This document shows positions 2,745-59,845 of a stretch of 64,000 bases of DNA, piece after piece; the first letter of the stretch is position 1; each line of letters begins with the position of its first letter. The stretch lies in NCBI RefSeq assembly GCF_009914755.1, contig NC_060937.1. One strand, given 5' to 3'. The position numbers were made by a program, and so were the translations under genes. The notes beneath the pieces are model-generated. The model made no database searches. It was given only the letters and a program-made list of their open reading frames with translations, and had not been told where the DNA came from. The stretch is from the human T2T-CHM13v2.0 reference genome, Homo sapiens.

Positions 2745-5700
2745 TTAGCAAAATTATATTTTATATACAAAAGTTAAAAAGCTACATAGTAATATGTCTT
2801 AAGATAATATTTTATCACTTCATGACCAAGTGTTGAACACCTAATCTGCTACTAAAATCTGTTTTTTCTCAGTGACGAGTTCACATTCACCGTGTAATCA
2901 AGCAAAAGTAACTGCAAATGTTACTGTCTCTGGTAATCTAGACATTTTATGAAGTCTCCAGTTCTTGAAGTTTAGTAGGTTTATAGTCAGGTACACTAGG
3001 TAAAGGCATAAATGTCATAGTTGTGTTAGGTATTTGAAAACATTGGCTTCATGAACTCCCCCCTAATTTAATACCCTTTCAAATCTGAGTGATTTATGAT
3101 ATGTATCAGTGGTTAAATTTAATACATGCACTGTTTTTTAATATCTAACTTTTTCTAGTTATAAAAGGTTACATAACTACATAAAACAATCCACATACTA
3201 ATTTTTATCTCTCATTTTAGGCTAGATACTTCTGTTCTGAGGTATATGAAATTATCAGTTTGTCAGACACTTAATCCTTTATCATTTATTGGCAAGGAAT
3301 GTAATTGAATTGGTCTAAACTAAAAGTGAAGATATTGACAGATTGTAGAGGGGTGGATTATCTGGCATAGTAGAAGGCACATCGGATCTGGGGTTAGACA
3401 ACTGGAGTTCTTAACTTGCTCTATGACTCCTTTGTCTCTGGTTCCTTTTCAGTAAAAGATGGTATAAATGCCTATGATTAAGTGTTTATGAGTATTACTG
3501 ATACTGTATGGAAAGCATGTTACATGGGACTGGCTCTGTAAACCAAAGTCTGACCTTATCAAAAGCTCTTCACAGCCATAACTGCACTGGGCACTGGGGC
3601 AGGTAGTGGGGCAGGGATCCCTAGATTCAGTAGGCTGTCTTAAAGAAGTTACTATCTAGTGGAAAAAATTCCACTTTCATGTACTCTAGTACATATTTAC
3701 AGAACATTTGCATGTGGTGGACAGTAGCCTGGGTTGTGGGTACTCAGTGAACAAGACAGACATCATCCTTCAACTCATGGAGCTTACATTTCTGATACCT
3801 TCATTTCTCATCCATTAACACGATTTACATTGACCGTGATTGCTGCTACATCACGTAATATTGGCTTTATCTTTCAAGTGTGCATTTATTGTATTTTAAG
3901 AATGAAGATACTAGAAAGGCCTCTCTTACTCAAGAGTACATAACAACTATGACAAAATAACTTGAAGTGAGATTTTTCTGAGATTATATATTTACATGAG
4001 TTATATATTAGTTTTTAAACTGCATCTTATGTGTCATTGCTACCATTTGATACATTTACTGTGGAGCTTAAACCATAAAGACCAGAGCTTATTCATAATG
4101 GGCAAAGCTGAATATAGAGTGAATGTGCTCGTCAGCTTGAATTAAAATTTAGAGGGTCCTAACTGAGGCTTTTTCAAGGGTGGAATTGAAGATTTTTGAG
4201 GAAACAGCATCTCTGGGACACAGGAATTACTCAGACTTCACTATGATCTCTATGTCGTCTCAAACAGCATCCCAAAGAGAAAGGGAAACTGTCTTTAGAG
4301 CAGAGATTAGTGTCAGGACAAACCTCTATGTTGTATGAAGTCAGTGACCTAGCGCAAACATAAACAGGGTTCCATGTCATGTTATGCTTGCCAGAAAAGC
4401 ATTTAATGTGAACTGGAATTGTGTGATTTTCTATGAGAATGTGGCCTATAAAACTGATTATGTTTTTGCAAGTTATTCCATCTGTAAGCAATGTGCATAA
4501 AAATGTTTTGTTAAAATAAAGAAAATTGAATTCAAAATGTGCACTAAAAATTATCCTATCAGTGTGAACATCAACCTAGAAAATTAGATGCACTCATCTC
4601 CCATATTTCATATTCTAACATTTCCCAATATTATGGAACATTTCTCCTATTCATGAATCTGCCTGCCAGTGCTATAAGTTTGTATTATTTTTAAACTTCT
4701 TGAGTTATTTGTTGTATAGGGTAGGATAAAAATAGTTTGGATGGATGGTATGCATTGGCATTAAATCTGCTTCAAGTCAGAGCCTAGAAACTCTGAATGG
4801 CACAGTTATTTTTAAAATGGCCAACAGATCGATAGAGACTGTGGCCAAAATTCTGAAAAAGTCTAATAAAAAGCATTGATACCTGTTTGGTAAAAATATG
4901 GTTTGCCTGAATAGACACTTGCAATGTTTGCTTTTCTGGATTGAGTATCACAGCAGGCAGATATTGTTGTTCTATATTGTCTCCAGGCTATCTCTGTCAG
5001 AGGGTTGTGTCACTGGGAACAAGTTATCTTTTCCAGGGTCTTTTCAGGCTGTATGTATTTAAACATAAAGACTAGAACTAAAGATAACAAAGAAGACAAA
5101 AGAATATACAAACAGCTCTTTGCTTCTCAAAAGGTGTAGAATGGTCATATCTGCTTTCTGACAGTGGTGATAGGGAGTGGGTTTGATTCTTCCTCAGTGC
5201 TTTTCAATGTTGAGCATCTTTTCATTTTCTCTTTGGTGAGACACTGTCGAAATGTCTGACCCCTGAAGCAGGATAGGATATGCTTTGTCCTGCTCACTCG
5301 CCCAAATCCTCCAGGGACATTTCAGTGCCTGGCTCTAGTAGTTGACACTGCTCCCCATTCCTGGTAAATGTGCTGGTACCATTTCCTCAGAAGAGAGAGT
5401 TTTCTACCTATCCAAGCCAAAAAGAGAGAAAAATTGAAATGTTGACTGAAAAAAGAAGGTGGAGATTTCTAGTCCATTTTATTGTTTCATGTTGGTTTAT
5501 TGAAGGGTCCAATTGGGAATTCTTACACATTTTGTAAATGTAGGAATAGGAGAAACCTGAAAAAGTGGTAAAACATAAATGAACTTCCAGCTTCATTTCC
5601 CTGACTTCCTTGTAAGTACCTTCCATGCTTAACCAATTCATCTTAGAATTCCCAAACCTTGAAATTCCATACATTGCTACCTTCAATAATCTTCATTCTT

Positions 5701-6949: not shown

Positions 6950-7890
6950 GAAGAAAATATTTTTAAATTATGTCTTTGATAAGGGAATTATATACAAATA
7001 ATAAAGAACTCTTCTAATGCCACAACAATGAAAAGACAACTCTATTGAAAAATGGGCAAATGACTTGAATAGACATTTCTTGAAAGAAGATATAGAAATA
7101 GGGAATATGAAATATGTTATCTTATCCAGTAAAAAATGTATATCAAAACCAGTATAAGATACCTTTTCCTACCCATTATGATTGTGATAATAAAAAAAGA
7201 CATGACAACAAGTATTGGTGGGAAAGTGGAAAAATTAAAGCCCTTATACATTGCTGGTGGGAATGCAAAATGATACAGCTCCTACAAAAAATAGTTTGGC
7301 AGTTCCTCACAAGCTAAACCTAGAATTACCATATTCCCCAGCAATTTCACAACTAAGTATATACCTAAAAGAAATAAAGGCATACATCTATCCAAAAACT
7401 TCTATATGAATGCACATAGCAACGTTATTCTTAATAGCCAAATTGTAGAAATAACCAGAATATCAATTAACTGGTGAGTGGCTAAATATATGTGGAGTAA
7501 CCGTACAGTGGAATATTATTTAGTCATAAAAAAGTGAAATACTGATACATGCTGCAATATGGATGAACTTCAAAATCATTATGCTAAGGGCAAAGAGCTA
7601 TGCATCAATGACCACACACTATATTCTTCCATTTAGTAAGTAGCTTAATGATTGTCTGTGGCTGGGGTGGGGAATGGTAGAGGGTTGGGAGAAAATCAGA
7701 ACGGCTGCTAATGTGTATGGAATTACTTTCTGGAGTGATGAAAATGCTCTAAAATTGATTGTTGTGATGGTTGCACATCCTAGAGCAGTTATGAATAGGT
7801 GAATATATTAAAAACATTGAATTTTATAATTTAAATGGATGAATTGTATGGAAGTATATGAATTATATCTTAATAAAACTGTTTTTAAAA
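6950..7890 (+). mobile_element. Old L1M (L1MB/L1MC-like) ORF2 end plus 3' UTR
   Basis: aaaatgggcaaatgacttgaatagacatttct; HCWWECK remnant in ORF 7114-7317; ends ...aataaaactgtttttaaaa. Confidence 0.85.
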
Positions 7891-39591: not shown

Positions 39592-41269
39592 TCATTTCAA
39601 CTTTGCAAGTCATCTCATTGATTTATTACAGACAAATGGGGGAGGTAGTAGAGCTGGGATCCATATAACTTGAACTATTGACAAATACTGTCAACTATCT
39701 CTCTATCCATCTCTCTATCAAAAATCTTTCTTCCTGTGGCTCATGACTTTGAAAAGAAAGTCTGACTTTTAGTCTTTAGTAAAACCGGAATATTTTCATC
39801 AACAGACACCCACCTACGTCTGCTACATAGACTGATGTTTTTGCTCGAAGAGCCTCTTAAGTGGTTCATTCCCAACTAAACAGCTTTGCATTAATGTGTG
39901 CCTAGAAAGCAACAGACAAAGTCAACTTTCAATAAATGTGGTTGATGCACTATAAGGAAAAATGTTATTACCAAATTTAATGAAATAGAGGTTATCAAAT
40001 GCCTCTGTTTAAAGTATTCTCTGATCACAATGGAAAACCATTCTGAAGAATTTACTATGGATTCAATTTACAAGAGAAATTGTATTCTATTTAGCGTTTG
40101 CTTTTGAGAAAGAATTGAGAATACAAAGATCACCTGTTGTCATTATCACCTGAGTTACTTGTTTTGTCCTTCTGTGGTGGTTTTTGGATTGGAGTTAATT
40201 TTTGGGAGGGCATTCCAGAAATGAACACAATCACAAAAAGGCCTTAGGTGAATGAAAGTTTTTTTATAGTTCATTTGTGATTAGTGTATTCATTTCTGTA
40301 ACTGATAATTTTTCTATGTAGATTACTTCAATAATATACAGTGTTATGAATAATTGGCAAGCCTTTTGAAATTATCAATGATGTTTCTATGCTTACAACT
40401 TTTAAATCAGCATAATCTGTGACTGCTGTCTTATGATGGTATTTCGAGTATTATATTATATTTAGAAAGTACTTTGCACTTGATAAATAATTTCATAATA
40501 AAAATAGTAAGAAATTGATATTGGGACTAGGAACCATAATAACAAAAATAGATTATTAAGATAAATCATTAAAAATGCAAGAATCTTACCATGGTTCAGA
40601 TACTGTGCTAAGCACTAGAAATTACAAGAGTATAAGAAAGTCCAGGTGTCAGTAGAAGAAAAGAACATTTTCCCCTCTAGAACAGCATATGGAATGTATC
40701 ACAGTTGAGTCTCCAGCAGTAAGAAAGTTTCACTTTGATTAAAACAATTTGATTATATTGATTGAAACAATTTAAGTTTTTCTCATTAATTTTAAGTAAT
40801 CTTGCAAAATGTATAGCCTAGGTATGTAAATATGGAAGATTGTTAAGAAGAGAGTATAAACCAAGGAAAATGAAGCTATCTATTTCCAATGAATTAAAGG
40901 CTATTTGTGTAATCTTGTTCTTTTGTAGCTTGTGTATGTTTCCAGTAACCTATGTCTGAGTTATATTACTTCATGGTAAAATTATACTATGTATAGGAAG
41001 TCAGTTAAAACAACCACCTGTCTCTCCACTGAATCTGATTTTGAAGTTTTATTCATATTGAAAGAAGTTAGGGATTCCATAACCCTATCTAAATGTACCA
41101 TGGCTAGAAAAACTTGTTTGGAACCACAGTCCTAATAACTGTATTGTACCTATCGAATATAAACTTCTGTCTTCTACAATCTGAGATAGGTGGTTATGAT
41201 AATCCAACCTTCATCTGACCCAAATGTTAACTCTTGTAAAAACAGAGCCACTATAGAGATTTAGCTCAG

Positions 41270-42490
41270 TCCTGATCAGTAAACATTTGTTCTTTGTATT
41301 TTGTATGTCAAGTACTGTCGGTTAACTTCCTGAGACATGAAGACTAAGCAGGTTACAGCATTTACAAGTAATAATTAGGAAGAGTGAAACAGAAGCAAAT
41401 AATGTCAATATATAATGAATACATATTCATTTATGTATATGAACATTATTTATGTAATGAACATTTATTATGCAATAAATGCTTTGGGAACTGAGAGGAG
41501 AGGCACCTAGCTTAATTTGGTAGGAGGAGTCACAAGTAAACTTTCCTTGAACCATGTGTTAAAGGTTGCATAGGTGTTGGGCAGGTGATGAGGGCACCTA
41601 GCATAGTGAAGGACATTTTAGGCAGAGGCAGTAACAGAGCAGAAGTGCAGAGGTGTGAAACTGAATGATGTGTGCAGGGAGCTACAAGCATGTTATCCTT
41701 GAGCCATAAAGTACAAAGCAATGATTTGCAGGAGACAAGGATAGAGACCTTAACTGAACCCTTGAATGAAAACCATCTATTTCACTAATGGTTTTGTTTG
41801 TCTATTCTGCCTGCATAATTTAAAACAGTTTCTGTGGATAGAAGCATTCCAGTACTTTCAAGAGACAGACATGGGCTGAGCACCTACTATGTGCCAGGCA
41901 CTTCTCTATAAGAAACAGAGGGAAAAACAATGAATGGCATTGTCCTTGAGGGATTCACAGTCTATCACGAAGAGAGACACTATGAAAAGTCCAAGTGTAG
42001 TGTAATTAATCAGGGTGACAGACGTAAGGATAAAATACTATATGAACCAACGGAAATACATGTTTCCCTTTACCTTGGGAAACGGGAGCAGACATCTTAG
42101 AGTAGGGAATCATCAGATGTGGACTTAAAGAATGAATAGCATCTCACAGAGGGAAAAAAGAGGTATGGCTTTCTTGCCAAGGGCCCAGCATGTGCAAAGG
42201 CATAAATCATGAAATGTTATGGTTGTTTGGAAATGAGGCCGGGAAGTAGATTTGAACCATATCATTTGGGCATATTATTTTTAAGTTAAGGAATTTGAAG
42301 AGCATCACGTGAGCTGTGGACCACCAGCTAAGATTTTTTAAAAGACAAATATATAATTGGTTATTTTTTCACTTAAGAAAGATGGGCAGGGAGCTGGTAA
42401 ACTGGCTGAAAGGAGACACACTGATGGCAGGTGCTGGGATGGGAAGCTGTTGCAATTAACCAGACAAGGGGTGATGAGACCTGAGTCAAA
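41270..42490 (-). mobile_element. Cluster of L2 fragments
   Basis: gagcacctactatgtgccaggcac, cagcatgtgcaaaggc, gaagctgttgcaattaaccagacaaggggtgatgagacctgag. Confidence 0.65.
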
Positions 42491-43231
42491 GCAGCATGGA
42501 GCAGATTGGGGAGCACATCTGGAAAGACCGCAGAGACCCTCCAGCTCAACAGCCACGATGCATGGTTTAGGGCCCTGTCCCCAGAGTCAGGGATGGAACT
42601 GTTTGGGAACAGTTGTCTGCCTGCTGACTGATTTGAATATCACCAACATATAAATGTTTGTTGGCAAAGGATAGCAACATTTATCTAGAGAAAGAAGAAT
42701 CAGGATCAGATGAAATGTCAGAGACTGTGCACATTTAAAGAGAGTTCTGAAAACAAAGACAAATGATGAGAACCAGCAAAGCACGCCCTCCTGAAAGTAA
42801 AGAGAGAGAGAATTCAAGAAATAGACTAATCAATAGCATCAACTGTGGCAGATAGTTAAGTGGAAAGGGCAGAGAAAACAGACCTTAGGATGTGGCCATT
42901 AGGATGTTAATGACTTTAGCAAGCGCAGGTTGACTTGAGTGGTTTAATTGGTTGGGAAGTTAACTTATCTTCCCCTACACATTCTAGAACAAGGTGTGCA
43001 AAGCTTGGTTCGTGGACTGCTGCATGTTCATAAATAGGCTGTTACTGTTTTGCCACAAGATACATACCAAAATTGAAAGTTAAAAAAAAATCTTTACATC
43101 AATTTCACATTGCTCTGACACCATCAATGGGACTTTTCCTGGGATGTTGAATTTGCATGGTGAGGCTCCTATGTGTGAGCGGCATATTAGTTGTACTCAA
43201 TAGGATCAGGTATCAGGTCATGATATATTGG

Positions 43232-44173
43232 TTTTTAATTCTGTTTATGTGGCGTATCACATTTATTCTGTTTATGTGGTGTATCACATTTATTCTGAAT
43301 GTAAACTGTGGCTTATCACCGTTTACACTGCTGTGTAAACTTTGCACAGCAGTCACATCGTCATCACTTACACATGTACAAGTGAGGAGGGTAGGCAAGG
43401 TATGTGATACCATGGGCCCAACTTGAAAGTTTGGAGGATTTCTCTTTTATTGTCCCGTCTTCAGAGATTCAATGTTATGAGGATGTTCCCTGGTGCAATA
43501 TCAGCGCACTATAGAGGTTTCTGAGCCAAGATCTTGCATATGTTAAACCATCCCTGCATCCTTGATATGAAACCCACTTGAGCATGGTGGGTTATTTTTT
43601 TGATATGTTGTTGGATTCGGTTAGCTAGTATTTAGTTAAGGATTTTAGCATCTATATTCATCGAGGATATCAGTCCGTAGTTTTCTTTTTGGGTTGTGTC
43701 CTTTCCTGGTTTTGGTATTAGGGTGATGCTGGCTTCATAGAATGAATTAGGGAGGGTTCCTTCTTTCTCTATCTTGTGGAATAGTGTCAAAAGGATTGGT
43801 ACCAATTCTTCTTTGATATCTGGTAGAATTCTGCTATGAATCTGTCTGGTCCTGTACTTTTTTTGTGGGTAATTTTAAAATTACCATTTCAATCTCACTG
43901 CTTGTTATTGAAGCTGGTTCTTTGAAAAGATAAATAAAATTGATAGAGTATTAGCAAGATTGACCAAGCAAAGAAGAAAGAAAATCCAAATAACCACACT
44001 AAGAAATGAAACAGGAGATGTTACAACTGACACCACTGAAACACAAAAGATCATTCGAGGCTACTGTGAACACATTTACGCACATAAACTAGAAAACCTA
44101 GAAGAGATGGATAAATTCCTGGAAAATACAACCCTGTTAGCTTAAATCAGGAAGAATTAGATACCCTGAACAG
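43232..44173 (-). mobile_element. L1PB-like ORF2 fragment, internally primed and 5'-inverted, with an embedded templated insert
   Basis: TSD caggt(ca/tg)tgatatattgg at 43214-43231 and 44171-44188. Antisense ORF2 at 43232-43267 and 43533-43910, sense ORF2 at 43911-44173. The pieces are contiguous in L1 coordinates (...ctgaacag|ac|caataacaag...). Confidence 0.85.
43341..43532 (+). repeat. 192-bp direct duplication, copy 1 (inside the L1)
   Basis: Ungapped match to 44771-44962 with 13 mismatches by manual count. Confidence 0.95.
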
Positions 44174-44770
44174 GTTGTGATATATTGGGAAAAATCAATC
44201 AACCAAAGATTGTTCAGATAATTTGAACCCCAAACAGATAATTTGAAATGTACTCTTCTAGAATAATGCTAAAAACAGGAAAATAATGAACATATTTTGA
44301 TTGATTTTGTTGATATGCTTGGGTTTACCTTTCCTGTGTTCAGCTCCTCTTTACCTATTTTTGTACCTTCCTACCCTAGCAGTTTTTCCCAGGGGTATAT
44401 TCTGGGTATGTACAACCATGATGAGCTTTCAGAAAACTCATTATGATTGGCATGTCTACTGTTTGCCTATCCCCCTCAAATACAAGAACTTCCCTGGGAC
44501 CGTGGAAAATGTGTGCAACAAACAGATGAGACGTCTTTGTTACTAATAGGGAACATCCACGGGTGAAATATGCCAATTAAAGTACAGCACAAATAAAAAA
44601 GACCCAAGGATAAAACACTAGTGCTATAACTCAGAGAATGCTGCTTGTAAAACAGCTTTATGAAGAAAAATGAACCTGACGTTTATCCCAGTCTCAATGC
44701 TGCCCATTTTTGGACATTTATTTCTGAATGCAATTATGCTCTTCCTATGAGAGGGTTCTGTGAAACAAGG

Positions 44771-44962
44771 TTTGCACAGCAGGCACACTGTAATCACTTA
44801 CACATGTACGAGTGAGGAGGGTAGGCAAGGTGTGTGATACCATGGGCCCAACTTGAAAGTTTGGAGGATTTCTATTTTATTGTCCCATCTTCAGAGATTC
44901 AATGTTACAAGGACATTCCCTGGTGCAATATCAGCGCACTATAGAGGTTTATGAGCCAAGAT
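44771..44962 (+). repeat. 192-bp direct duplication, copy 2 (probable donor)
   Basis: Offset exactly 1430 nt from copy 1. Confidence 0.95.
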
Positions 44963-46489
44963 ACACATCAAAAATAATTTTAATAAAGCTTGACAGATAT
45001 ATTGCCTTAATAGTGCTGACATAGTGAAGCGGGACTTATATAGGGAATACGACATCCTAACATTTTTAAAAATGAGATATTAGGTCACACAGATATTTGT
45101 AAGAAAGAGGGGGGTATGTTATTACATTTTGTAGATTTCCTCCATTGTTATCTTTGTCATTGCAAGCAAGGGTTATTCCTTTGCATCTATTTGCATTATA
45201 CCTCTTCATCCTGATGAGTGATATTCAGCACAAACACAATGGGTCAATCTCAGATACTTAGAATATAGTAATCATACCAAACAATGTTGAAACTCTACAT
45301 TTTTTGTGTCTAAATCAAATAACCAAGAGTGAAAATGGACAGTTCAGAGTGTCAGTAATAGGATAACGGTGACTCTAACATTCAGACGTAAGTAAAACTA
45401 TAGCCGAAATCAGTAGATACTGCCAAGTTAACATCAAATGACCCTTAAGTGGCTTGCATACACAGAATTTTTTAATTCATTTTTGCCCTTGCAGGAACAT
45501 GCTGCATGTCAGAAATGCCACTGTCATATTTAATACTGAACAGAGAGCAGTGGATTTTATATGGAAATTTTAACCTTTTCAGATTGTAGTGTCTGAAGAA
45601 GTGAGGAAGATCAACTTTTCTATGTTAATTTTGTATAGAATTTTGGCAATCAAAAAGTACATTCACTGAATATTTTAAACTTTCATAAATACATTAATTA
45701 CGGAAACATTATGCATACTATTTTTATAGTAGGTACAAATACAAGTCTTTTCATAGAGAAATATATTCATTTATAAATAATGGGTTTTAAAATTTTCATT
45801 TGCTCTCAGCTTTCTAAAAACACGTTCTGTTACTAAAAATGTATCAAGACATAAGGAAATACTTATTTCATTGTTTTTAATGAAAATGGACAACATTTAG
45901 TAAGAAGTACACAATTTTATAACGCTTTAAAAATTAGCAGAGAACCAAGCACTTTGCAGAAGTCTTTGTTCTTTTCATCTTAGAATTTTGTTGCACAAAT
46001 CAGAGGCTCAGCCAAGGAGAATTCAACTGTGCTTGCAATAAAGCATTTTATTGGAAAGACAAACCTTACGATATTCTGCTGCATCGGTAGAGAGAAGATA
46101 ACTATATAAAATATTTATGCCCCATTTTCCATAAAATATCAAAAATATCTATTTTGGAATGGAGAAAAAAGTACCCTGACATTTTTGGCTAGGATGGAAG
46201 ATAGAATCCAGATTGAAAGTCTTTTTTATTTGTGCAGATTTTTTTTCAGTGTTAGTGTGATAGTACTTTCCCAACAATGGTCTGTTATCCTAAATGTTTA
46301 ACAAATTGTAAAACCTTTCACTCCCAACTGTCCAAGACTTCCCTCTTGATTGCTTGTGTTTGTCACTTGGGTTGTGATTTTGCAGTAGAGAACTGGAGAA
46401 ATGAAATAATATTATGAATCACCCTAGCCAAATAGACATTTATATCCTTCAAATTACTGAGGAAATTTAAGTTGTTGCTCCAGCTTAAA

Positions 46490-46572
46490 TCACCAGGATA
46501 TTTATTTTTTGTTGGTGGTAAGAAAAATAAGTCACCAGGATATTTATTTTTTGTTGGTGGTAAGAAAAATAA
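46490..46572. repeat. Perfect 42-bp tandem duplication
   Basis: tcaccaggatatttattttttgttggtggtaagaaaaataa occurs twice with a 42-nt period. Confidence 0.95.
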
Positions 46573-47897
46573 TTTTAAGTATCTTCATATATTTTTTTCT
46601 GATCCTAAAATCAATATGTGTGTTCATCTGAATTTTTTTGAAGAAGCAGAAAAGTACAAAGAAGAAAATAAAATATTCTAAATTCTCCATACCCAGAGAT
46701 AATTAAATGTCAAAAGTTTTATTTCTAGTATATCTCTAATATGATTTTATATTGCAAAATTATGTGTGCTGTTTGATATTAAATTCTACTTTTATTATTT
46801 TAACATCACATGCATTTCCCCACCTCGGTGGCACTTCTTTTTTTTTTTTTTTAAGTACTCCTATATCTTAAAAATTTTCTTTTACAACCTAAGAGATTTG
46901 TTTGCTGCCGATATATCTGGGTATCTCTTACAAAAAAATAATTCCCTAAACAGCCTTACCTAGAAAATAAAACAGTTGGCTCGCATCGTTTGTTTGCATG
47001 TGTGGGTGTACATGTGTGTGCATGTTTAGCCTGACTCACTTTTCACTCTGAATTCCAAGGTACATGGGAGCTCCGTAGCTCTCTTATCATGTATTTAACT
47101 GCTGGAATTTACTGATCACTTTATACCTACTCCACATAGTTCCATAACTTAGAAACAGTTTTCATTCAAAAGGGAAAAGAAAGGATGGGTATATAAAGGG
47201 GAGATAAGGAATGAGGCTGACAAAAAAATGTGTGGTAGAAATCCATGAACAATACCTTCCATTGGGCCCCAAATCTGAATCTATGTCAGATTAAAAACTG
47301 GTGGACCTTGGTCCAAACTGGCCCAGTTGTATAAAAAAACATAATTTATTTGGCATGAGCTCTTTAGGATTTCAAGCAATGTTTTTAAATTGGGCGGATT
47401 GACATAAAATATGGATTTCTACAGTTTCTTGGAAGATAAAACAACCCTGAGCCGGCAATTGCATAGCAAAGATCAGCTGGAGTTAATTAGTCTTTAGACT
47501 GAGCTTTTTTTTGCCTTAGCATCCATGTTCAGTTTAACGCAGGTCTGAACACTCCTGGAGTTGGCCTGATCCTGAATTCAGTGCTAGTTGCCATTTAGCT
47601 CAGTGCTTAGCTCCTTTGTTCATAATAAATAAATATTTTTCTGTACCTATTTTTTAACCAAAAGTGAAAAAGTGTAATCCAAATAAGCCATGTGTCAAGA
47701 AAAATAATGCTTCAAAAATAATGCTTTTTTTTGTTTTGTTTTGGAAGTACACAATATGTTAAATATTTAATATACAAATAGCATCTGTGGTTAAAGAACA
47801 CATTCAGTGAACTTCACTCACAGTTATTGTTCATCTCCCTAGCCTGTGAACTTGCAAAGTCTCCTTTAAGCTTTATATTGGCCATCATTTGGTGTAA

Positions 47898-48194
<297 letters not shown>

Positions 48195-48212: not shown

Positions 48213-49764
<1,552 letters not shown>

Positions 49765-50230
49765 AAATGAAAGTAAACCAAAAGCTAAGAAGAAAACTCT
49801 ACTATTTCTGATGTTAGGACCAGGGAAGAATCCTCCCTTCCATTAATGCCCTCAAAAACATCCTCGTAATATATACAACTAGACATTGAAGCCAAAATGT
49901 ACCAAAATGTATAGCAAGCACAGGCTTAGAATTGTTCCTATTTTATGTCATTATAATATCATCACCATTATGAAAATTCTCTTCCTGTTCAATGTAATGC
50001 AAGCTAACAAATGATTACTTGCCAGCCACTATGCTAAGTACTTTTTACACCTTGCCATTTAGCCCTTACATTAAACCTATGAGATAGGTATGGTTATCAT
50101 TCCACTTATTATATAAGAAACCTAAAGCAGAATGACACAGAGCCTATGCTGTAATATTCCACACTGCTTCACCCACAGTTGAATTTTTGGTCTCTAAATA
50201 CAGCAACCTAATGCAAAACTCAATGGTCTA

Positions 50231-58602: not shown

Positions 58603-59845
58603 CATTTTTTTAAAAGAATAGACATTCTTTTTCAGAGCAGTTTTAGGTCCACAGCAAAATTGAGTGGAAGGTACAGAGATTTCCCACATAACCTTTCCCC
58701 TCCTGCCCCTCACCTCATGTACAGCCTCCCCTGGTATCAATGTCCCCACCAGAGTGGCACATGTGTTATGACTGATGAACCTCATTGACACATCATTATC
58801 AAAAAGGACCATAGTTTACATTAGGTTCACTCTTGTGTTGTACATTTTGTAGGTTTGGACAAACATCTAATAACATGTGTTCACTTTTACAGTATCCTAC
58901 AGAATAATGCTGCCCTGAAAACTCTCTATGTCCCACCTGTTTATCTCTCCATCCTTACTAATCCCTGGCAATAACTGATATTTGTATTGTCTCTATAGTT
59001 TTTGCTTTTCCAGAATGGCATGTAGTTGGGAATTCTACAGTATGTAGCCTTTTCAGATTGGCTTCTTTGACTTAGTCATATGTTTGTGAGGTTTCTCCGT
59101 GTCTCTTCATGGCCTGGTAGCTCATTTCCTTTTAAGATTCAATAATATTCCATTATCTGGGTGTAACACAATTTTATTTATCCATTCATCTACGGAAGGA
59201 TATCTTGGTTGCTTCCAAGTTTTGGCAATTATGAATAAAGCTTTCATAAATATCTGCATGGAGGTTTTTGTGTGGATATGTTTTCAGTTCCTTTGGGAAA
59301 ATACCAAGGAGCAAGAATGCAGGATAGTATTTATAGTTTTGGGAGAAACTGACAAACTGTCTTCCAAAGTGGCTATACCATTTTTCATTCCCACCAGCAA
59401 TGAGTGAGAGTTTCTGTTGCTCTACATTCTCACCAGCATTTGGTGTTGTCAGTGTTCTGGATTTTGGTCATTCTAATAAGTGTGTAGTGTATCTCATTGT
59501 TGTTTTCTTTTGCATTTCCCTGATGACATATGATGTGGAGCATCTTTTCGTATGCTTATTTGCCATTTGTTTGCTTATTTGCCATTTGTATGCCATTTGT
59601 ATGTCAGTGAGGTGTCGAAGTCTTTAGATCATTTTTTGATTGACTTGTTTTCTTATTGTTGATTTTAATCATTCTTTCTATATTTTGGATAACAGTATTT
59701 TATCAGATATGCCTACTGCAAATATTTTCTCCCAGCCTGTGGCTTCTCCTTTCATTCTCTTGACAGTGTCTTTCACAGAGCAGTTTTTAATTTTAATGAA
59801 GTCCAGTGTATTGATTCTTTCATGGATCATGCCTTTTGTGTTTGT
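58603..59845 (-). mobile_element. L1MC/L1MD-like 3' end
   Basis: agagcagttttaggtccacagcaaaattgagtggaaggtacagagatttccc...cccaccagcaatgagtgagagtt... Confidence 0.88.

What the first reader, a model, noticed from the sequence alone, without database searches (positions are those of the whole stretch)
42982..44962. Multi-template L1 integration: internal priming, stuttering, capture of 192 bp of neighbouring DNA, exact return to L1, and twin priming within one TSD pair
Seen, reading left to right (the direction cDNA would be made for a minus-strand L1): (1) TSD1 caggtcatgatatattgg at 43214-43231. (2) No poly(A) or 3' UTR; antisense ORF2 starts at an internal A-rich site (tttttaattctgtttatgtggcgtatcacatttatt). 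(3) A 27-nt re-copy at 43265-43291. (4) Short patchwork filler to 43340. (5) A 192-bp direct copy (43341-43532) of unique DNA that lies about 580 bp beyond the right TSD (44771-44962). (6) L1 resumes essentially where it left off (recalled consensus cacatttatt-ga-cttgcatatg). (7) Inversion at 43910/43911. (8) TSD2 caggttgtgatatattgg at 44171-44188, sharing CAG with the L1 end. The empty site is reconstructable because the host Charlie element and its TTCTAGAA TSD rejoin across the insert. The nick (attgg|gaaaa) is not the L1 endonuclease TTTT/AA consensus. Established: twin priming, internal priming and templated insertions are each known separately. Inference: a single event in which the polymerase left the L1 RNA, copied nearby genomic bottom strand (giving the direct orientation seen) and came back. 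Alternatively, a later Pol theta-type repair patch landed inside a pre-existing L1.
Basis: partly seen in the sequence, partly recalled or inferred. Interest (0 to 1): 0.8.

Follow-up and report, generated by a model that had tools for sequence, protein, structure and literature searches.

The report
Patchwork L1 insertion with captured neighbour DNA
An old, tail-less, partly inverted L1 fragment in a GPC6 intron is interrupted by a 265-base patch copied in short hops from the L1 itself and from unique DNA half a kilobase away, which looks like a fossil of a copying enzyme switching templates during one integration, although a later repair event is not excluded.

Summary
All eight numbered items of the observation hold. 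Against 22 genomic L1 copies, three L1 ORF2 pieces (about residues 364-590) sit between 18-bp target-site duplications. They lie within 2 nt of each other in L1 coordinates at the inversion (43910/43911) and across the 265-bp patch (43268-43532). The two TSD mismatches are a CA/TG pair, the footprint of one ancestral CpG. The 192-bp unit occurs only twice in the genome.

New findings:
- The L1 departure point shares a 9-nt identity with the flank at 44714-44722, and the next 10 bases are copied from there.
- The filler holds a 12/13 palindrome at the start of the 192-bp copy.
- Two 10-11-mers in the filler match one 35-nt stretch of L1 that lies about 1.7 kb outside the inserted piece (36 of 40,000 shuffles do as well).
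- The target's primer strand is partly complementary to the L1 RNA at the internal priming site.

Dating is inconclusive; by the strictest CpG masking it leans slightly towards a younger patch.

Best reading (about 0.58): one complex, tail-less, twin-primed retrotransposition with repeated microhomology-guided template switching. Main rival (about 0.34): a later break or replication error repaired inside an older L1. The Charlie host claim is unconfirmed. Primate orthologues would decide between the two readings.

The parts
43214..43231 (.). Left target-site duplication (TSD1), 18 bp. Its 3' part is also partly alike to the L1 bases that lie just 3' of the priming site.
   Evidence: 16/18 identity to 44171-44188, with the mismatches CA vs TG. 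11 of 18 matches (median over 16 loci) to the L1 18-mer next to the priming site; 33 of 8000 background 18-mers do as well.
43232..43267 (-). L1 ORF2, antisense on the + strand, 36 nt: the 3'-most L1 piece (about ORF2p residues 580-590 by continuity). It has no poly(A) and no 3' UTR.
   Evidence: BLAST to 20 of 22 L1 loci ending at the same L1 base; sequences; reading frame.
43268..43294 (-). 27-nt re-copy of 43241-43267 (one difference, 43253 C / 43280 T). It ends at the same L1 base as the first copy.
43295..43340 (.). 46-nt filler. 43295-43304 copies flank 44724-44733 (1 mismatch). 43307-43319 is a third partial copy of L1 43248-43260 (12/13). 43327-43339 is the inverted complement of 43341-43353 (12/13). 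43297-43307 and 43324-43333 match the sense strand of one L1 ORF2 C-terminal stretch that is not part of the insert.
43341..43532 (+). 192-bp direct copy of 44771-44962.
   Evidence: 13/192 differences; only these two places in the assembly.
43533..43910 (-). L1 ORF2 antisense, about ORF2p residues 453-578. It resumes 2 nt after the L1 base where 43267 and 43294 stop.
   Evidence: 91-92% identity to genomic L1 copies; contiguity; PDB ORF2p residues 484-544 and 546-578.
43911..44173 (+). L1 ORF2 sense (inverted relative to the rest), about ORF2p residues 364-450. Its last base is 2 nt upstream in L1 of the base at 43910. The last 3 nt (CAG) are shared with TSD2.
   Evidence: PDB ORF2p residues 364-438.
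44171..44188 (.). Right target-site duplication (TSD2).
44714..44733 (+). Flank site that shares a 9-nt identity (44714-44722) with the L1 departure point, followed by the first copied bases. It lies 526 nt right of TSD2 and 38 nt left of the 192-bp source.
   Evidence: Local alignment of 43286-43304 to 44714-44733: 18 matches, 1 gap, 1 mismatch. 1 of 984 other 126-nt stretches of the window scores as high.
44771..44962 (+). Source of the 192-bp copy: unique DNA 583-774 nt right of TSD2.

Best explanation
One complex L1 retrotransposition produced the whole 957-bp insert.

Shown:
- About 681 nt of the middle of ORF2, with no tail, lies between 18-bp TSDs as three pieces. In L1 coordinates the pieces are collinear to within 2 nt at both internal joints.
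- One end piece is inverted and shares CAG with the TSD, which is the twin-priming geometry.
- The other end starts at an A-rich internal L1 site that the target's 3' end partly complements, which is tail-less (internal) priming.
- The patch, 36 nt from that end, is a chain of short direct and inverted copies with microhomology at several joints. The units are: a 27-nt L1 re-copy, 10 nt of flank entered through a 9-nt identity, a 13-nt third L1 copy, a 13-nt fold-back, 192 nt of flank, and a return sharing GA.

Inferred:
- While the two sticky ends of the target were being extended on one L1 RNA, a growing 3' end repeatedly left its template and re-annealed nearby. Possible landing sites are the L1 RNA, its cDNA, and local single-stranded nucleic acid 0.5-0.8 kb to the right.
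- That local template could be DNA exposed by resection from the nick, or a local transcript, since the site lies in introns of GPC6 and GPC6-AS2.
- The end came back because the rest of the L1 hybrid or duplex held the proper template in place.

I cannot decide whether the wandering strand was the first-strand cDNA (left to right) or the second strand being laid on that cDNA (right to left). I also cannot decide whether ORF2p or a host polymerase did the copying.
For: - L1 contiguity at both joints is 2 nt. ORF2p residues 364-438, 484-544 and 546-578 are matched by PDB search.
- The TSD is 16/18 and its only mismatches are a CpG footprint. Its length is inside the 12-18 bp class reported for twin-primed insertions, and short 1-10 bp losses at the inversion were seen in 22 of 32 experimental cases (PMC11702581, passages read).
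- The target primer strand is partly alike to the L1 bases next to the priming site: 11/18, with 33 of 8000 background 18-mers as good. This is as described for tail-less retropseudogenes (PMC5322556, sections read).
- The patch begins 36 nt from the priming site.
- The 9-nt identity and copied bases are at 44714-44733.
- Two filler words (11 and 10 nt) hit one 35-nt stretch of L1 about 1.7 kb 3' of the inserted piece, in all 4 copies of that stretch I found. 36 of 40,000 dinucleotide shuffles reach the observed pair sum.
- The only copy of that stretch within 30 kb of the patch, 49120-49164, is in an L1 98-99% identical to other copies, so it is far younger than the patch. It also matches the filler worse.
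[quoted passage not shown] Purified ORF2p jumps templates in vitro (PMC7617806, passages).
- Pol theta templated insertions are generally under 25 bp (PMC12426944, passages), against 192 nt here.
Against: - Non-CpG divergence of the 192-bp pair is 6 differences over 180 sites x 2 lineages (1.7% per lineage). The L1 has 24 private changes in 602 sites (4.0%). The ratio is 0.42, one-sided p 0.033, which suggests a younger patch.
- That result depends on my reading of 7 differences as CpG-type. With the script's narrower rule (3 CpG-type) the ratio is 0.67, p 0.19. With all sites it is 0.85, p 0.38.
- CpG retention is 5 of 12 in the pair against 20 of 78 in the L1 family, in the same direction but not significant (Fisher p 0.30).
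- A return within 2 nt of the departure point is what a break in existing DNA gives for free.
- The L1 C-terminal words are in sense orientation on the + strand, opposite to the neighbouring L1 pieces. No single simple route explains every unit.
- Among natural 46-mers of the window, 108 of 6000 reach a pair sum of 20 or more (observed 21). That null includes old repeats, and the statistic was chosen after seeing the hit.
- Neither nick fits the L1 endonuclease consensus.
- No orthologous locus could be examined.
Confidence: 0.58

Rival explanations
1. Two events. A tail-less, twin-primed L1 inserted first. Later, a double-strand break or a replication stall 36 nt inside it was repaired by iterative microhomology-mediated synthesis (polymerase-theta end joining or MMBIR-like template switching). 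The left 3' end annealed through the 9-nt identity to the resected minus strand about 1.2 kb to the right, stuttered, copied 192 nt, and was finally joined to the other side of the break.
For: - The exact return (2 nt) is automatic if the return point is the other end of a break.
- The patch is a patchwork of short direct and inverted copies of nearby sequence with microhomology, which is the described signature of polymerase theta repair (PMC12426944, passages).
- The 192-bp pair looks younger than the L1 by the strictest non-CpG count (ratio 0.42, p 0.033).
- All templates except the two L1 C-terminal words exist in the locus.
Against: - 192 nt of continuous copying is far beyond the usual size of under 25 bp.
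- The break would have had to fall exactly at the end of the 9-nt identity with no loss of L1 bases, and within 36 nt of the end of a 681-nt insert.
- That insert is itself of a rare kind (tail-less and inverted).
- The two filler words matching an L1 stretch absent from the locus would be chance (36 of 40,000 shuffles).
- The dating signal disappears under other CpG rules.
Confidence: 0.34
2. This is not endonuclease-driven retrotransposition. A pre-existing staggered break or stalled fork in the GPC6 intron was patched with whatever was at hand, including L1 RNA or cDNA pieces and local DNA (endonuclease-independent, repair-type L1 capture). All units were joined by end joining rather than by one polymerase travelling between templates.
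For: - Neither nick resembles the L1 endonuclease consensus: TTGG/GA on the + strand and CCTG/AT on the - strand (read).
- There is no poly(A).
- There is microhomology at both outer junctions.
- Experimental insertions can take up additional cDNA products before ligation (PMC11702581, section 7).
Against: - An 18-bp clean TSD and two L1 pieces that abut within 2 nt in L1 coordinates are what twin priming on one RNA predicts, not what random capture predicts.
- From recall, not read here: endonuclease-independent insertions usually lack TSDs.
Confidence: 0.05

Closest known systems
Twin priming (5'-inverted L1 insertions; Ostertag and Kazazian 2001, seen here only as a cited reference; experimental series in PMC11702581)
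   Same: Two L1 segments lie in opposite orientation inside one TSD pair. They are 2 nt apart in L1 coordinates, and the inverted piece abuts the TSD with 3 nt of microhomology. The TSD is 18 bp.
   Different: The non-inverted arm has no poly(A) and starts about 685 codons before the end of ORF2. That arm is interrupted by a 265-bp non-collinear patch.
Tail-less retropseudogenes / internal priming (PMC5322556)
   Same: The insert is 3'-truncated without an A tail and flanked by TSDs. It is primed at an A-rich internal site to which the target strand is partly complementary. That paper counts 5,593 3'/5'-truncated L1 forms with TSDs under relaxed criteria.
   Different: The target does not fit their consensus TT/WAAAAWW; in element orientation it reads TC/CCAATAT. 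It is combined here with inversion and a templated patch.
[quoted passage not shown] S10 could not be seen)
   Same: Chromosomal DNA from close to the target is copied into a TSD-flanked L1 insertion.
   Different: Those cases are attributed to processing of the reciprocal DNA end before ligation. Here the patch lies inside the reverse-transcribed tract, 36 nt from the primary end, with L1 on both sides collinear to 2 nt.
Polymerase-theta templated insertions and MMBIR/FoSTeS template switching
   Same: Iterative short copies from nearby sequence, both direct and inverted, with microhomology at the joints and a patchwork make-up.
   Different: One unit is 192 nt long (usual size under 25 bp, PMC12426944). 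Two words match L1 sequence that is not in the locus. The patch lies inside a retrotransposition product, next to its priming site.
L1 chimeric insertions by RT template switching to other RNAs (U6/L1 and others; PMC13174262, passages read)
   Same: A second template is concatenated to L1 within one TSD pair, in the same orientation as expected for a switch during reverse transcription.
   Different: Known chimeras put the foreign RNA at the 5' side of a 3' L1 piece. Here the foreign tract comes from the insertion locus itself and L1 continues on the far side.

Membership tests
Canonical L1 TPRT insertion | L1-derived sequence | tested here: met
   91-93% identity to many genomic L1 copies; ORF2p matches in PDB with E 1.6e-26, 5e-24 and 3.8e-12.
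Canonical L1 TPRT insertion | Flanking target-site duplication of roughly 7-20 bp | tested here: met
   18 bp, 16/18, with the mismatches a CA/TG CpG footprint.
Canonical L1 TPRT insertion | 3' poly(A) tail next to one TSD | tested here: not met
   L1 antisense sequence from the middle of ORF2 starts directly after TSD1.
Canonical L1 TPRT insertion | First nick at the endonuclease consensus TTTT/AA | tested here: not met
   The + strand reads TTGG/GA at 43231 | 44189. The consensus itself is taken from PMC5322556 and PMC13174262, written there as TT/AAAA.
Twin priming | Two oppositely oriented L1 segments within one TSD pair | tested here: met
   43533-43910 antisense and 43911-44173 sense.
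Twin priming | Segments adjacent in L1 coordinates, with a small loss or duplication at the inversion | tested here: met
   2 nt apart, directly in 16 of 22 loci and in the other 6 after allowing for trimmed match ends. 1-10 bp deletions were seen in 22 of 32 experimental cases.
Twin priming | Microhomology between the reciprocal target end and the internal priming site | tested here: met
   CAG at 44171-44173 belongs both to the TSD and to L1.
Tail-less retropseudogene (internal priming) | 3' truncation without an A tail, with TSDs | tested here: met
Tail-less retropseudogene (internal priming) | Target site complementary to the RNA at the element's 3' end | tested here: met
   11/18 (median of the 16 of 21 loci that could be placed); 33 of 8000 background 18-mers do as well.
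Tail-less retropseudogene (internal priming) | Target consensus TT/WAAAAWW | tested here: not met
   In element orientation the site reads TC/CCAATAT (reverse complement around 44189 and 43231).
Polymerase-theta templated insertion | Inserted bases copied from sequence near the junction, direct or inverted, as a patchwork | tested here: met
Polymerase-theta templated insertion | Small size (generally under 25 bp) | tested here: not met
   The patch is 265 bp in all, with one unit of 192 nt. The size rule is from PMC12426944.
Polymerase-theta templated insertion | Dependence on POLQ | not testable with these tools
   Needs genetics in cells.
   TTCTAGAA is present at 42984 and 44257. No inverted terminal repeat was reported. 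No other copy was found with 42980-43231, but that search misses old, diverged repeats and no repeat library was at hand.

The most novel reading that the evidence does not exclude
During a single integration, the L1 enzyme itself alternated at least six times between templates. These were the L1 RNA (two regions 1.7 kb apart), the nascent cDNA, and a local chromosomal template 0.5-0.8 kb from the nick. The local template was either resected DNA or a nascent GPC6 / GPC6-AS2 transcript. The enzyme copied 192 nt of it and resumed on L1 within 2 nt of where it had left. That would be a germline fossil showing that an integrating L1 complex can sample local nucleic acid in mid-synthesis while its proper template stays clamped in place.
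Probability: 0.3. Interest if true: 0.7.

Novelty: new variant of a known kind. Interest (0 to 1): 0.5.

Why it matters
Each ingredient is described separately: twin priming, tail-less priming, RT template jumping, and locally templated extra sequence at L1 insertions. A patch inside the reverse-transcribed tract, with L1 collinear on both sides, was not described in what I could search and read (searches; passages of five papers). The supplementary figure S10 of PMC11702581 was unseen.

If it is one event, it records how unstable early synthesis can be at a weakly primed site. It also shows that the template can be regained, which bears on how ORF2p holds its RNA and on how L1 integration duplicates nearby DNA.

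It gives a concrete search pattern for a genome-wide count: an L1 insert interrupted by a copy of its own flank, with collinear L1 on both sides. If it is two events, it is an unusually long templated repair insertion, of modest interest.

Tried and rejected
- The 192-bp unit as a dispersed repeat: rejected. Only two places in the assembly match.
- L1 running on into TSD1: rejected. BLAST matches to L1 copies start at 43216-43218 in 12 of 22 loci. But only about 10 of 15 bases agree there, against about 92% in the rest of the L1, and those bases are identical in TSD2. I read this as primer/template likeness.
- Charlie host element: a genome search with 42980-43231 found only the locus itself and no terminal inverted repeat appeared. 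This is left open, not refuted.
- The nearby L1 at 49120-49164 as the template for the L1-like filler words: rejected. It is 98-99% identical to other copies, hence much younger than the patch, and it matches worse. Older L1-like stretches at 7243-7284 and 59368-59417 also match worse.
- Gapped local alignment of the filler to five L1 places gave only small, inconsistent hits. Four of those five places lack the C-terminal stretch.
- My first null for the L1-word test was spoiled by other repeats in the reference loci (1382 of 3000 natural stretches had an exact match of 11 or more). I replaced it with single-place references.
- Dating by star decomposition of pairwise distances and by private changes agree at about 4-5% for the L1. 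The comparison with the 192-bp pair does not settle one event against two.
- Gilbert et al. 2005 (PMC1190285) is not held.
- Two searches failed on term format and were re-sent in corrected form (then 22). Two PDB searches failed on stop codons and were re-sent with stop-free coordinates (then 29-31).
Full report
**Where it lies.** By the hub's annotation the region is in an intron of GPC6 (+ strand) and inside the span of GPC6-AS2 (- strand), away from exons.

**Check of the observation.**
- The sequence and the repeat finder show the 192-nt direct repeat, 43341-43532 against 44771-44962, at 93% identity.
- They also show the 18-nt repeat, 43214-43231 against 44171-44188, and a 27-nt tandem repeat.
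- A pairwise alignment fixes the ends of the long repeat at 43341 and 43532.
- A search of the whole 3.1-Gb assembly with the 192-nt unit finds these two places and nothing else. It is therefore not a dispersed repeat.

**The L1 pieces.** No repeat library was at hand, so I used natural L1 copies of the same genome as rulers.
- Searches with 43533-43910 (reverse strand) and 43911-44173 returned 40 scored matches each, at 90-93% identity. I kept 11 loci from each search, 22 loci in all, covering 21 distinct places.
- BLAST of 43150-44260 against these loci shows that 43232-43267 and its re-copy 43268-43294 both end at the same L1 base.
- It also shows that 43533 lies 3 bases further on, so 2 nt of L1 are skipped. 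This is direct in 13 of 22 loci; the others have trimmed or missing matches.
- The base at 44173 and the base at 43910 are likewise 2 nt apart, directly in 16 of 22 loci.
- The sequences show the skipped bases are GA in 8 of 9 copies printed. The 192-nt copy ends in GAT, so up to 2 nt may be shared at the return.
- Translated stop-free stretches match human ORF2p in the PDB at residues 364-438, 484-544 and 546-578.
- The insert therefore holds about 681 nt from the middle of ORF2. It has no 3' UTR or tail, and its 5' third is inverted.

**The ends.**
- The two TSD copies differ only at adjacent positions, CA against TG. That is what one ancestral CG gives when it decays on different strands, so the duplication was probably perfect.
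- At the right end, CAG is shared by the TSD and L1.
- At the left end, the 18 bases of TSD1 agree at 11 positions (median of the 16 of 21 loci that could be placed) with the L1 bases just 3' of the point where copying began. Only 33 of 8000 background 18-mers from 40000-48000 agree as well.
- The L1 RNA there is A-rich.
- This fits priming of reverse transcription at an internal site by a partly complementary target end, as described for tail-less retropseudogenes (PMC5322556, sections read).
- The nick contexts are TTGG/GA and, on the other strand, CCTG/AT. Neither fits the endonuclease consensus.

**The patch (43268-43532).**
- The 27-nt unit 43241-43267 is repeated once, with one difference.
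- The last L1 bases plus the first filler bases, 43286-43304, then match the flank at 44714-44733 with 18 matches, one 1-nt gap and one mismatch. Only 1 of 984 other 126-nt stretches of the window scores as high.
- So L1 and the flank share a 9-nt identity exactly at the switch point, 38 nt left of the 192-nt source, and 10 further bases were copied from the flank.
- The rest of the filler holds a third partial copy of the L1 piece: 43307-43319, 12 of 13 alike to 43248-43260.
- It also holds an almost perfect palindrome: 43327-43339 is the inverted complement of 43341-43353 at 12 of 13, i.e. of the first bases of the 192-nt copy.
- The patch is thus a chain of short direct and inverted copies with microhomology at several joints.

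**An unexpected template.**
- Two filler words, 43297-43307 (11 nt) and 43324-43333 (10 nt), match the sense strand of a single 35-nt stretch near the C-terminal end of L1 ORF2.
- That stretch lies about 1.7 kb 3' of the L1 base matching 43533, and the match holds in all four copies of the stretch that I found. This part of L1 is not in the insert.
- Against one natural 7.5-kb L1 place, 36 of 40,000 dinucleotide shuffles of the filler reach the observed pair sum of 21.
- Among natural 46-mers of the window, 108 of 6000 reach 20 or more. That null includes old repeats, and I chose the statistic after seeing the hit. I take the true chance level to be somewhere between 0.001 and 0.02.
- The only copy of that stretch near the locus (49120-49164) lies in an L1 that is 98-99% identical to many others, far younger than the patch. 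It also matches the two words less well.
- If the match is real, L1 nucleic acid reaching beyond the inserted piece was present when the patch was made, which favours one event.
- Its orientation is sense on the + strand, opposite to the adjoining L1 pieces. The simple left-to-right cDNA model does not explain this.

**Dating.**
- Star decomposition of pairwise distances gives the window's L1 a branch of 4.0-5.1%.
- Counting changes private to the window at sites where at least 85% of the other copies agree gives 24 of 602, or 4.0%.
- The 192-nt pair has 13 differences. From the contexts printed, I read 7 of these as CpG decay, including two TG/CA double hits. That leaves 6 over 180 sites, or 1.7% per lineage.
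- The rate ratio is 0.42, one-sided p 0.033.
- With the script's narrower CpG rule (3 flagged) the ratio is 0.67, p 0.19. With all sites it is 0.85, p 0.38.
- CpG retention is 5 of 12 in the pair against 20 of 78 at four clear CpG sites of the L1 family. This is the same direction but not significant.
- The L1 figure also includes any differences its source element had before insertion.
- The data therefore allow equal ages and lean mildly towards a younger patch.

**How it most likely arose.** I favour one integration event at 0.58.
- Two 18-nt 3' overhangs of the opened target both primed on one L1 RNA: one at an internal A-rich site, the other 230 codons upstream through CAG.
- Near the weakly primed end, a growing 3' end repeatedly left its template and re-annealed by microhomology to whatever was single-stranded nearby. 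It then regained its template because the remaining hybrid or duplex kept that template in register.

Two routes fit.
- **Route A: the first-strand cDNA wandered, left to right.** It left L1 through the 9-nt identity, copied the minus strand exposed by resection from the nick (or a minus-sense local transcript), and returned with GA.
- **Route B: the second strand wandered, right to left, while being laid on the cDNA.** It left at 43533 and copied a plus-sense template (DNA or GPC6 intron RNA) plus bits of the dangling 3' part of the L1 RNA. It re-annealed to the cDNA through the 9-nt identity, 2 nt from where it had left.
- Route B explains the orientation of the L1 C-terminal words, and it explains the exact return by the 640-bp duplex anchor. 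Route A explains more simply why a single-stranded flank was available.
- These routes are inference. The enzyme (ORF2p, which jumps templates in vitro, PMC7617806; or a host polymerase) is not identified.

**The main rival (0.34)** is a later break or replication error inside an older L1, repaired by iterative microhomology-mediated synthesis.
- For it: it gives the exact return for free, it matches the described patchwork signature (PMC12426944), and it agrees with the mild dating lean.
- Against it: it needs a 192-nt unit where under 25 bp is usual, and a break exactly at the end of the 9-nt identity with no base lost.
- Also against it: the break would lie 36 nt from the end of a rare kind of L1, and the two L1 words would be chance.

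**Against what is known.**
- Twin priming, tail-less priming and RT switching to other RNAs are established (PMC11702581, PMC5322556, PMC13174262; passages read).
- In four full-text searches and the passages read, I found no case with a locally templated patch inside the reverse-transcribed tract and collinear L1 on both sides.
- I therefore file this as a new variant of a known kind, pending the primate comparison.

**Not settled.**
- One event or two.
- The strand and enzyme of the patch.
- Whether the local template was DNA or RNA.
- The identity of the host sequence. The Charlie claim is unconfirmed.
- The L1 subfamily, since no library was available.

Noticed in passing
window 48935-49779 (+): The 3' part of a very young L1, 98-99% identical to dozens of copies elsewhere in the assembly. 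The match begins at about 48935, inside the masked block 48227-49779.
   Followed up: partly
window 7243-7284 (+) and 59368-59417 (-): Older, diverged L1 ORF2 C-terminal fragments, found while looking for possible templates of the filler.
   Followed up: no
window 42984-42991 and 44257-44264: The palindromic octamer TTCTAGAA occurs on both sides of the insert, 1.27 kb apart. I found no inverted termini and no other copies, so it may be chance.
   Followed up: partly
window 43253 / 43280 / 43312: At the one position where the two 27-nt copies differ (C against T), the third partial copy in the filler also has C, while most genomic L1 copies have T. The template copied three times therefore probably carried C (a CpG), and the second copy later decayed.
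   Followed up: partly
L033 (G000:C6:2447000-2454500), sense positions about 4638-4662 and 5488-5499: This reference L1 place carries two copies of the ORF2 C-terminal stretch about 840 nt apart. It is therefore itself rearranged, or holds a second L1 fragment.
   Followed up: no
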